Below are positions 993 to 1,880 of a DNA stretch of 9,739 nt, in pieces. The stretch is from NCBI RefSeq assembly GCF_003334815.1, contig NZ_QOWO01000062.1; one strand, written 5' to 3'. The position numbers and the translations under genes are program-made. The stretch's first letter is position 1; each line of letters starts with the position of its first letter. This DNA comes from Escherichia coli (GTDB lineage: Bacteria; Pseudomonadota; Gammaproteobacteria; Enterobacterales; Enterobacteriaceae). Under the pieces are notes generated by a model. It searched no databases and had not been told where the DNA came from. It was given only the letters and a program-made list of their open reading frames with translations.

Positions 993-1880
993 GACTACCT
1001 GAAGGGAGCCGCGGTCGCCTAGCAGTTGCAGTAGCAGGAGATCATCCAGCCGCAGTACAGGTCACGATGACTCTGGTTAATGATACCGGCTTTGACCCCG
1101 TATTTTCCGGCTCTATCGCTGAATCATGGCGTCAGCAGCCGTGCACACCATCCTATTGTTGTGACTGGGAGGCTGCCACCATGCTTCGCGCTTTCCCTCT
1201 GGCGAAAAAGGGAGAAGGACGGGCCCGTCTGCCTTCACTTTATGCCAGCTTCGGTAAGCTGGGTGAGACACCGACTCATAAAGATATCATTGATAACAAT
1301 CGATCCATCAACTGGCCTGTATAACGTGGCTGCCGGTGATTAAGAAAGCTGCACCTACCTAAGTAGTAGCAAACGCACACTTTTTAGAAAAATCGATGGT
1401 CAGAAACTGGATTAGCAATTCCGTTCCAGGGTTGCTTTTGATTTACGTTGGCGTCTGATCATTGATTTATCCTCAAAAGCCCAACCTCATTGGTAATGAA
1501 CCAGCTCCGTGAATGTCCGCTCTGGCACAGAGCGAAATTTTTTGATCTCCCCCCTGAAATCTAAACTTAGTCATGTCACGTTTTTGGGTTTCTAAAATTT
1601 TAACTTCGCGTTTTTCGTTGCCGTAAGGGTTATACAGAAATGTCCGTTAAGCAGAGTTCAAAATTGATTGCCGTGATCACGACTGGTTTGAAAGCCGCGC
1701 CCAAGCCTGTACAGCTCTGGTTTGCGTTGATTATGAACCTGTCAGCCTAAAGCAAGCGGATGGACGATGAGTATTGGTAATCTTTCAGAGTCCGGAAAAG
1801 TTCAGCCCCAGTCTGAACAGGCTTGCTGGCGCCAGTCCAGTTTCATTCAGTCGTGGTTTGGTTCTTACGGCCTGTGCAAT

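What the first reader, a model, noticed from the sequence alone, without database searches (positions are those of the whole stretch)
1325..1880. About 550-bp AT-richer stretch with no convincing ORF between the IS911 remnant and the fecE 3' end
No ORF above the track threshold lies wholly in this interval on either strand, and its composition looks different from the GC-rich fec genes. It could hold the junction of the acquired fec segment, a decayed gene, or a small RNA. I see no clear terminator hairpin directly after the fecE stop.
Basis: seen in the sequence. Interest (0 to 1): 0.25.

Follow-up and report, generated by a model that had tools for sequence, protein, structure and literature searches.

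The report
Patchwork spacer downstream of fecE
The 556-base gap next to the E. coli iron-citrate transport genes is an ordinary non-coding spacer assembled from the tail ends of two facing genes, a short dead piece of a jumping-gene enzyme and about 115 bases of unknown origin, with no sign of a working gene or small RNA.

Summary
Window 1325-1880 has 45.5% GC, against 54% in fecE and 60% in fecD/C. Its longest internal ORF is 36 aa. No terminator follows the fecE stop.

It is the unannotated yjhV-fecE intergenic region of the E. coli K-12 KpLE2 fec island (NC_000913.3 4510134-4510689). It is at least 99% identical in about 2,700 of 5,426 complete E. coli genomes.

It is a mosaic of four pieces:
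- **A, 1325 to about 1512:** the native 3' flank of a 248-aa NADPH-dependent F420-reductase-like gene. yjhV is the C-terminal 109 codons of that gene, cut by IS911 at 992/993.
- **B, about 1513-1629:** unassigned, about 40% GC, with one hairpin plus T-run on the + strand.
- **C, about 1630-1739:** a relic of an ISNCY (ISKpn21-like) transposase, roughly aa 137-171, with an in-frame stop.
- **D, about 1747-1880:** the native 3' flank of fecE, shared with Citrobacter youngae.

The fec segment therefore ends at about 1740-1747. One public contig carries the intact 248-aa gene, an identical 556-bp spacer and fecE, so the spacer is older than the IS911 insertion.

There is no Rfam hit and no conserved small ORF. 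Polymorphism density equals that of fecE.

Verdict: a recombination scar between convergent genes, ordinary and of low interest.

The parts
1..992 (+). IS3-family (IS911B-1 / ISEc52-like) remnant with a frameshifted transposase
   Evidence: RefSeq annotation of identical loci: CDS ends at window 985. The K-12 IS911B-1 element ends at L007 5802, which is window 992. Homology to the uninterrupted gene in L172 and L009 starts at 993.
993..1324 (+). yjhV pseudogene fragment, the C-terminal 109 codons (aa 140-248) of a 248-aa NADPH-dependent F420-reductase-like, NAD(P)-binding protein
   Evidence: 97% identical to aa 140-248 of P0040, which carries PF03446 and PF03807. K-12 annotates yjhV at the equivalent of window 995-1324. 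The stop codon is conserved in Raoultella terrigena.
1325..1512 (+). Segment A: native 3' flank of the reductase-like gene
   Evidence: Continuous homology 993-1508 to Raoultella terrigena L009 5416-5934 (85% overall, about 75% in the flank). The Raoultella DNA that follows (5937 onward) is found elsewhere in L170.
1385..1475 (+). 91-nt imperfect hairpin inside segment A, with a 15-bp outer stem and an inner hairpin followed by UUUUGAUUU. Possibly the old terminator region of the reductase-like gene.
   Evidence: MFE -30.2 kcal/mol, z = -3.68, 0 of 200 shuffles as stable. The opposite strand gives z = -1.44. The Raoultella equivalent gives z = -4.21. Only two sequences are available. The differences break pairs without compensation.
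1513..1629 (.). Segment B: unassigned AT-rich filler (GC about 0.40) with a C6/C7 run polymorphism at 1549-1554
   Evidence: No significant match in plasmids, phages, E. coli genomes or the fetched loci apart from copies of the same locus. Similarity to the ISKpn21 left end is not significant (34 of 500 shuffles reach it).
1518..1544 (+). Terminator-like hairpin (7-bp stem CGCUCUG/CAGAGCG, 3-nt loop) followed by AAAUUUUUUG
   Evidence: Consensus scan. Fold -10.8 kcal/mol, z = -1.26. All 69 metagenome contigs with this 24-mer show the same fec context, so it is not the end of a multi-copy element.
1630..1739 (+). Segment C: relic of an ISNCY-family (ISKpn21-like) transposase gene, about aa 137-171, with an in-frame stop (TAA at 1648-1650, read off the alignment) and a one-codon deletion
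   Evidence: 80% nt identity over 1661-1739 to ISKpn21 in more than 1,400 plasmids. The match lies inside the 467-aa transposase CDS. tblastn gives 17 of 24 aa, E = 9e-7. A three-way alignment with ISKpn21 and the pHCM1 ISNCY element extends the homology to about 1630.
1740..1746 (.). Junction between the transposase relic and fec-associated DNA, which is the end of the fec segment
   Evidence: ISKpn21 homology ends at 1739. Citrobacter youngae fec homology starts at 1747.
1747..1880 (-). Segment D: native 3' flank (3' UTR region) of fecE
   Evidence: Homology to the Citrobacter youngae fec locus continues 134 nt past the fecE stop, at 69% with an indel of about 11-16 nt. fecE itself is 85% identical. 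No variant shared by 2 or more of 62 sequences was seen here.
1881..2648 (-). fecE, the ferric citrate ABC transporter ATPase
   Evidence: ORF list and RefSeq annotation of identical loci.

Best explanation
The interval is a non-coding spacer between two convergent genes, built by successive rearrangements and carrying no dedicated function of its own. Reading left to right, it holds about 190 nt of the original 3' flank of a 248-aa NADPH-dependent F420-reductase-like gene, whose C-terminal stub is yjhV. Next come about 115 nt of unassigned AT-rich DNA, then an approximately 110-nt dead fragment of an ISNCY (ISKpn21-like) transposase gene, and finally about 134 nt of the original 3' flank of fecE.

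Inferred history: the fec operon with its short 3' flank was once next to an ISNCY-type insertion sequence. Deletions or IS-mediated recombination removed nearly all of that element and joined the remainder to the downstream flank of the reductase-like gene. Later, IS911 cut the reductase gene at window 992/993. The finished composite then spread through E. coli as one block.

Shown: the four homology blocks and their boundaries, the existence of the pre-IS911 state, and the near-identity across E. coli. Inferred: the order and mechanism of the joining events, and that the hairpins in 1385-1544 merely end + strand read-through while fecABCDE transcription ends without a canonical intrinsic terminator.
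For: Locus identity: the window matches E. coli O103 RM8385 at 100% and K-12 at 99.8%, and nothing is annotated between yjhV and fecE. Segment A: 993-1508 is colinear with the Raoultella terrigena reductase gene and its downstream DNA, with a sharp break. The DNA following the break in Raoultella lies elsewhere in the relative L170. Segment C: 80% nt and 71% aa identity to an internal part of the ISKpn21 transposase, with a stop and a codon deletion. Segment D: fec homology extends to 1747 in C. youngae, to 1865 in E. soli and to 1881 in Klebsiella plasmids. Pre-IS911 state: contig L172 has the intact 248-aa gene, a 556/556 identical spacer and fecE. None of 5,426 complete E. coli genomes has the intact gene. 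No function signals: no Rfam family, promoter-like sites at chance level, and a fecE 3' end that folds no better than shuffles. The 41-aa ORF at 1767-1892 is put out of frame by an indel in C. youngae. Shared-variant density is 10.8 per kb, against 10.5 per kb in fecE. The interval is stop-rich. The left 384 nt is absent in fec-positive O55:H7 DEC5A, where an IS3 element abuts 1709.
Against: About 115 nt (1513-1629) has no identified source, so the mosaic is incomplete. The 91-nt hairpin at 1385-1475 is far more stable than shuffles, is strand-asymmetric, and is also stable in Raoultella, which leaves room for a functional RNA or DNA structure. Terminator-like sites are somewhat enriched in 900-2300 (5 found, 1.6 +/- 1.3 expected). 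No expression data for iron-limited, citrate-induced cells could be examined. With at least 99% identity across E. coli, population data have almost no power to detect constraint.
Confidence: 0.8

Rival explanations
1. The spacer holds a functional structured RNA or transcription-insulating module. The 91-nt hairpin (1385-1475, +) and the hairpin plus U-run (1518-1544, +) would act as terminators or a 3'-UTR-derived small RNA for + strand transcripts. They would protect the convergent fec operon from read-through coming out of IS911 or yjhV.
For: The hairpin gives z = -3.68 (0 of 200 shuffles) on the + strand and only -1.44 on the - strand. The Raoultella equivalent gives z = -4.21. The scan flagged two + strand terminator-like sites, at 1414-1436 and 1518-1534. 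Terminator-like sites are enriched over shuffles.
Against: There is no Rfam match. The few differences between the E. coli and Raoultella hairpins break pairs without compensation. Closer and more distant orthologues of the reductase gene lose homology at or shortly after the stop codon, so the hairpin is not a conserved companion of the gene. No promoter-like site lies inside the interval. The upstream gene is a dead stub in every complete E. coli genome. Neither fecE nor yjhV is listed in the held supplements of two 3'-end mapping papers.
Confidence: 0.12
2. The interval encodes one or more small proteins, for example the 36-aa ORF at 1640-1750 (+) or the 41-aa ORF at 1767-1892 (+), which has a GGAUGG motif 5 nt upstream of its ATG.
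For: The ORFs exist. The 1767 ATG and its upstream GGATGGACG are conserved in C. youngae. Some genome annotations call hypothetical proteins here (P0038, P0039).
Against: The 36-aa ORF is an out-of-frame reading of the transposase relic. In C. youngae an indel shifts the 1767 ORF to a different, 23-aa product (read by hand from the alignment; the ORF tool was run only at 60 aa or more). The curated K-12 record lists validated small proteins nearby (ykiE, ythA) but nothing here. The only database homologues are self-hits from E. coli. The interval is more stop-rich than shuffles.
Confidence: 0.03
3. The whole 1510-1745 stretch is a single internally deleted ISNCY element that still has its left terminal repeat at about 1510, rather than a bare internal fragment next to unrelated filler.
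For: The Raoultella homology breaks just before GTGAATGTCCGCTCTGGC. ISKpn21 and the pHCM1 ISNCY element carry GTAATGTCCGCC(T)(G)TGGC about 75 nt upstream of their transposase start. Local alignment of 1484-1660 to the ISKpn21 left end is reached by only 7 of 500 shuffles.
Against: With the query limited to 1509-1660, 34 of 500 shuffles reach the score, and against the pHCM1 element 190-201 of 500 do. The motif lies about 45 nt inside the ISKpn21 left boundary, which is at or before L005 2434, so it is not the terminal repeat. No N-terminal transposase coding signal is present. The 24-mer occurs only in the fec context in 69 metagenome contigs.
Confidence: 0.15

Closest known systems
ISKpn21 (ISNCY family insertion sequence) transposase
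   Same: Window 1661-1739 is 80% identical in DNA, and 17 of 24 residues identical in protein, to codons 148-171 of the 467-aa ISKpn21 transposase (…QIDGCDHDWFEGRGPACTALVYVD…). The alignment extends with lower identity back to about codon 137.
   Different: Only about 35 of 467 codons remain. There is an in-frame stop and a one-codon deletion. There are no recognisable element ends and no second copy. The nearest known elements are only about 80% identical, so the parent element is not ISKpn21 itself.
yjhV-fecE intergenic region of the KpLE2 phage-like element in E. coli K-12
   Same: It is the same locus: 99.8% identical, the same 556-bp length apart from a C6/C7 run, the same neighbours, and no annotated feature.
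   Different: Nothing of substance. The window is from an O103-like strain whose IS911 copy is not further interrupted by IS30 and IS600 as in K-12.
Convergent-gene spacers with intrinsic terminators
   Same: The interval lies between the 3' ends of two convergent genes and carries + strand hairpin plus U-run motifs at 1414-1445 and 1518-1544.
   Different: No matching terminator serves the fecE strand. The spacer is about five times longer than needed and is interrupted by foreign DNA.
fec loci of Citrobacter youngae, Enterobacter soli and Klebsiella plasmids
   Same: The fecE orthologues are 87-88% (protein) and 75-89% (DNA) identical. C. youngae shares 134 nt of 3' flank.
   Different: Beyond that flank the neighbours differ completely: an IS66 tnpB in the Klebsiella plasmid and an unrelated 183-aa ORF in C. 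youngae.

Membership tests
ISNCY-family insertion sequence (ISKpn21-like) | Sequence homology to the family's DDE transposase | tested here: met
   80% nt identity over 79 nt in more than 1,400 plasmid records annotated as ISKpn21 or ISNCY transposase. tblastn E = 9e-7 within the window.
ISNCY-family insertion sequence (ISKpn21-like) | Intact transposase ORF of about 465-470 aa | tested here: not met
   Only about codons 137-171 are present, with an in-frame stop. No other part of the protein was found by tblastn at E below 10.
ISNCY-family insertion sequence (ISKpn21-like) | Recognisable element ends (terminal repeats) | tested here: inconclusive
   The weak resemblance of 1484-1560 to the ISKpn21 left-end region is reached by 7 of 500 or 34 of 500 shuffles depending on the query, and is not seen against a second ISNCY element.
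ISNCY-family insertion sequence (ISKpn21-like) | Multiple copies or occurrence in different genomic contexts | tested here: not met
   The median is one place per E. coli genome, always at fec. All 69 metagenome contigs with the 1511-1534 24-mer have the same context.
Intrinsic (Rho-independent) terminator of fecABCDE | GC-rich hairpin followed by a U-run shortly after the fecE stop on the - strand | tested here: not met
   No - strand site was found between 1700 and 1880. The 3' region gives z = +1.03. The best hairpin has a 6-bp stem, only 4 U, and z = +1.56.
Known RNA families (Rfam 15) | Covariance-model match at or near the gathering score | tested here: not met
   The best hit is a plant miRNA model at 21.7 bits against a gathering score of 107 (E = 0.4). 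Everything else has E above 8.
NADPH-dependent F420-reductase-like NAD(P)-binding proteins (PF03807 / PF03446), for the yjhV stub that defines segment A | Full-length 248-aa protein with an N-terminal dinucleotide-binding domain | tested here: not met
   The window keeps only aa 140-248 (97% identical to P0040). The Pfam domains are recorded for full-length orthologues (precomputed hits). The N-terminal part is absent from all 5,426 complete E. coli genomes.
Small-protein genes | ORF conserved in frame in related loci | tested here: not met
   The 1767-1892 ORF is frame-shifted by an indel in C. youngae. The 1640-1750 ORF overlaps the transposase relic out of frame.

The most novel reading that the evidence does not exclude
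The 91-nt, strand-asymmetric hairpin at 1385-1475, together with the hairpin plus U-run at 1518-1544, could be a functional RNA element. Candidates are a 3'-UTR-derived small RNA or a read-through insulator shielding the convergent fec operon. It would have been kept in every fec-positive E. coli for that reason rather than by hitch-hiking.
Probability: 0.07. Interest if true: 0.4.

Novelty: new member of a known kind. Interest (0 to 1): 0.1.

Why it matters
It matters little. The analysis places the downstream edge of the horizontally acquired fec segment in E. coli at window 1740-1747, about 135-140 bp past the fecE stop. It shows an unannotated ISNCY transposase relic at that edge. It identifies yjhV as the tail of a 248-aa reductase-like gene whose intact form still exists next to an identical spacer in some unsequenced-to-completion organism or strain. 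This is useful for annotating KpLE2 and related fec islands and for reconstructing how the island was assembled. It does not reveal a new gene, RNA or mechanism.

Tried and rejected
- **Rfam:** an E-value-mode scan of 900-2300 gave only chance hits.
- **Source of 1513-1629:** I searched plasmids, phages, E. coli genomes, 80 fecE loci from other species and orthologue contexts of the reductase gene. Nothing was significant. A 75-77% match to Klebsiella phage-plasmids (E = 0.1-5) lies in an unrelated intergenic spot.
- **IS left end at about 1510:** the permutation tests were weak or negative. The shared ATGTCCG motif at 1639 turned out to be part of the transposase coding homology. The 24-mer at 1511-1534 is single-context in metagenomes.
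- **Closer parent transposase:** a protein search with the relic peptide returned only E. coli self-hits. A first attempt failed because the query was too short.
- **Expression evidence:** neither fecE nor yjhV appears in the held supplements of two E. coli 3'-end mapping papers. A third paper had no held supplements. The Genomic-SELEX paper lists an RpoD site only upstream of yjhV, in the insM/yjhV spacer, not in this interval.
- **yjhW:** this older gene name lies upstream of yjhV, not in the interval.
- **Diverged copies:** several apparently diverged homologues (L012, L096-L099) are error-rich assemblies of the same E. coli locus and were not used for conservation analysis.

Full report
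**What and where**

The window is the fec (ferric citrate transport) island of Escherichia coli. Window 1000-2000 matches E. coli O103 RM8385 at 100% and K-12 MG1655 at 99.8%. It is present in 2,737 of 5,426 complete E. coli genomes, nearly always as one full-length block at 99% identity or more.

In the curated K-12 record the interval 1325-1880 corresponds to NC_000913.3 4510134-4510689. This lies between the yjhV pseudogene (window 995-1324, +) and fecE (1881-2648, -), inside the KpLE2 phage-like element. No feature is annotated there. PGAP-annotated genomes also show nothing under it. The IS911/ISEc52 remnant ends at 985 (CDS) or 992 (element).

**Check of the observation**

- GC is 0.455 in the interval, against 0.531 (yjhV), 0.542 (fecE), 0.603 (fecD/C) and 0.560 (whole window). 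The trough is 0.405 at 1513-1660.
- The longest ORFs wholly inside are 36 aa and 33 aa.
- Dinucleotide shuffles give a mean longest ORF of 69 +/- 20 aa. Only 1.8% of shuffles are as ORF-poor, so the stretch is mildly stop-enriched.
- No terminator-like site follows fecE on its own strand. The 190 nt after the stop fold no better than shuffles (z = +1.03). The one small hairpin there is weak and is not conserved.

**Anatomy: four blocks**

*Block A (1325 to about 1512).* The yjhV reading frame is the tail of a larger gene.
- A protein search found full-length 248-aa NADPH-dependent F420-reductase-like proteins (PF03446, PF03807). The best, P0040, is 97% identical to yjhV over its residues 140-248.
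- In Raoultella terrigena the homology to the window runs without interruption from 993 through the conserved stop codon to 1508, then breaks sharply. Identity is 91% in the coding part and about 75% in the flank.
- The DNA that follows the break in Raoultella (an HxlR-type regulator gene) is found at a different place in a closer relative, L170. About 1512 is therefore a real rearrangement point.

*Block C (about 1630-1739).*
- A sensitive DNA search against plasmids hit more than 1,400 records, all over query 337-415 (window 1661-1739). Identity was about 80%, inside genes annotated as ISNCY-like ISKpn21 transposase.
- Translated, window frame +1 reads KIDCRDHDWFESRAQACTALVCVD, against QIDGCDHDWFEGRGPACTALVYVD at residues 148-171 of the 467-aa enzyme (E = 9e-7).
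- A three-way alignment with ISKpn21 and a second ISNCY element from pHCM1 carries the homology back to about 1630. It shows a one-codon deletion and an in-frame stop.
- No other part of the transposase is present.

*Block D (about 1747-1880).*
- A scan of one genome per species with FecE returned Enterobacter soli (88% aa), Citrobacter youngae (87%) and Silvania confinis (81%) as the nearest loci.
- DNA homology to C. youngae continues 134 nt beyond the fecE stop, to window 1747. Homology to E. soli continues 16 nt. In Klebsiella plasmids it stops at the stop codon.
- The flank is 69% identical with an indel, against 85% for fecE.

The transposase relic ends at 1739 and fec-linked DNA begins at 1747. 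The edge of the fec segment therefore lies within 1740-1747.

*Block B (about 1513-1629).* This block could not be assigned.
- Searches of plasmids, phages, E. coli genomes, 80 fecE loci and several orthologue contexts gave nothing significant.
- I tested whether it is the left end of the same ISNCY element. The motif AATGTCCGC...TGGC is shared with the 5' regions of ISKpn21 and the pHCM1 element, but permutation tests were weak or negative.
- The motif is internal to ISKpn21 rather than terminal.
- The 24-mer at 1511-1534 occurs in 69 metagenome contigs, all with the same fec context.

I leave this as a 15% variant of the main model.

**History**

A Logan assembly contig (L172) carries the intact 248-aa reductase-like gene, a spacer identical to the window at 556 of 556 positions, and then fecE and fecD. 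The spacer therefore existed before IS911 cut the gene at 992/993.

No complete E. coli genome has the intact gene: all 2,705 matching genomes align only from the IS911 junction onward. The composite IS911-yjhV-spacer-fec was thus formed once and then spread.

In O55:H7 DEC5A an IS3-family element abuts window 1709 and everything to the left is gone. A fec-positive strain can therefore lack blocks A, B and half of C.

**Tests for function**

- *RNA families.* No Rfam family matched.
- *Promoters and terminators.* Promoter-like sites are at chance level and none lies inside the interval. Terminator-like sites are mildly enriched (5 found, 1.6 +/- 1.3 expected), with two on the + strand at 1414-1436 and 1518-1534.
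- *The one notable signal.* A 91-nt hairpin at 1385-1475 on the + strand has MFE -30.2 kcal/mol and z = -3.68, with 0 of 200 shuffles as stable. The opposite strand gives z = -1.44. The Raoultella equivalent is also stable (z = -4.21).
  - Only two sequences exist, and their differences break pairs without compensation.
  - Other orthologues of the gene lose homology at or just after the stop codon.
  - The simplest reading is that this is the old terminator region of the reductase-like gene, now stranded behind a dead stub.
- *Small ORFs.* These are not conserved. The 36-aa ORF is an out-of-frame reading of the transposase relic. The 41-aa ORF at 1767-1892 is frame-shifted in C. youngae.
- *Population variation.* Shared-variant density among 62 sequences is 10.8 per kb in the interval, against 10.5 per kb in fecE. 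This is uninformative given the near-identity.
- *Published 3'-end maps.* The held supplements of two E. coli 3'-end mapping papers list neither fecE nor yjhV (PMC7815308 and PMC10687069). This is weak negative evidence, because fec is induced only under iron limitation with citrate (established knowledge of FecIR regulation).

**Conclusion**

The interval is an ordinary recombination scar between convergent genes in a mosaic genomic island. The 'decayed gene' idea is right for about 110 bases only. The 'small RNA' idea has no support.

The kinds of thing present are all well known: IS relics, stranded 3' flanks and island junctions. The specific ISNCY relic and the junction positions are simply not annotated. 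Interest is low, at 0.1.

Noticed in passing
L130 about 1-1445 and L165 (metagenome contigs); junction at window 1324/1325: In two independent metagenome contigs, homology to the window starts exactly at 1325. In L130 the DNA to the left was inspected and is a truncated two-partner-secretion (cdiB/cdiA-like) locus, whose ORF reads ...KQTSVAAGD* into window 1326-1343. L165's left flank was not inspected. Raoultella planticola also has a filamentous-haemagglutinin / PT-VENN gene just upstream of its HxlR-reductase module.
   Followed up: partly
L172, L170, L171 (Logan contigs): An intact 248-aa NADPH-dependent F420-reductase-like gene with its divergent HxlR regulator sits next to an identical spacer and fecE. 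No complete E. coli genome has this state, and the host organism is unknown.
   Followed up: partly
window 997-1111: Nine of the ten differences between the window's yjhV stub and the intact gene in L172 cluster in the first 120 nt next to the IS911 end. The next 770 nt are almost identical. This suggests a short recombination tract or a different allele at the junction.
   Followed up: no
window 1549-1554: There is a C-run length polymorphism (C6 in the window, C7 in many others). It was seen in 33 of 62 aligned sequences and accounts for most of the '99.7%' hits.
   Followed up: no
L004 (E. coli O55:H7 DEC5A), junction at window 1709: An IS3-family element with a programmed frameshift abuts the fecE flank inside the ISNCY relic. 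A tyrosine integrase and tRNA-Leu lie just beyond it. This is a shorter version of the island's edge.
   Followed up: no
L177 2803-3747 (Enterobacter hormaechei): An ISNCY-type 465-aa transposase gene lies immediately downstream of the reductase orthologue, in the opposite orientation. It is 73% identical to window 1682-1754. This may be coincidence or may hint that such elements favour this neighbourhood.
   Followed up: no
window 1-992 compared with K-12 L007 3126-5802: The window's IS911-like copy is a single frameshifted transposase. In K-12 it is further split by IS30D and an IS600 fragment, so the window represents an earlier state of the island than K-12.
   Followed up: no
(genome-contig scan): The species-representative genome scan with FecE returned no Escherichia or Shigella locus, although the protein is from E. 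coli. The best hit was Enterobacter soli at 88%.
   Followed up: no
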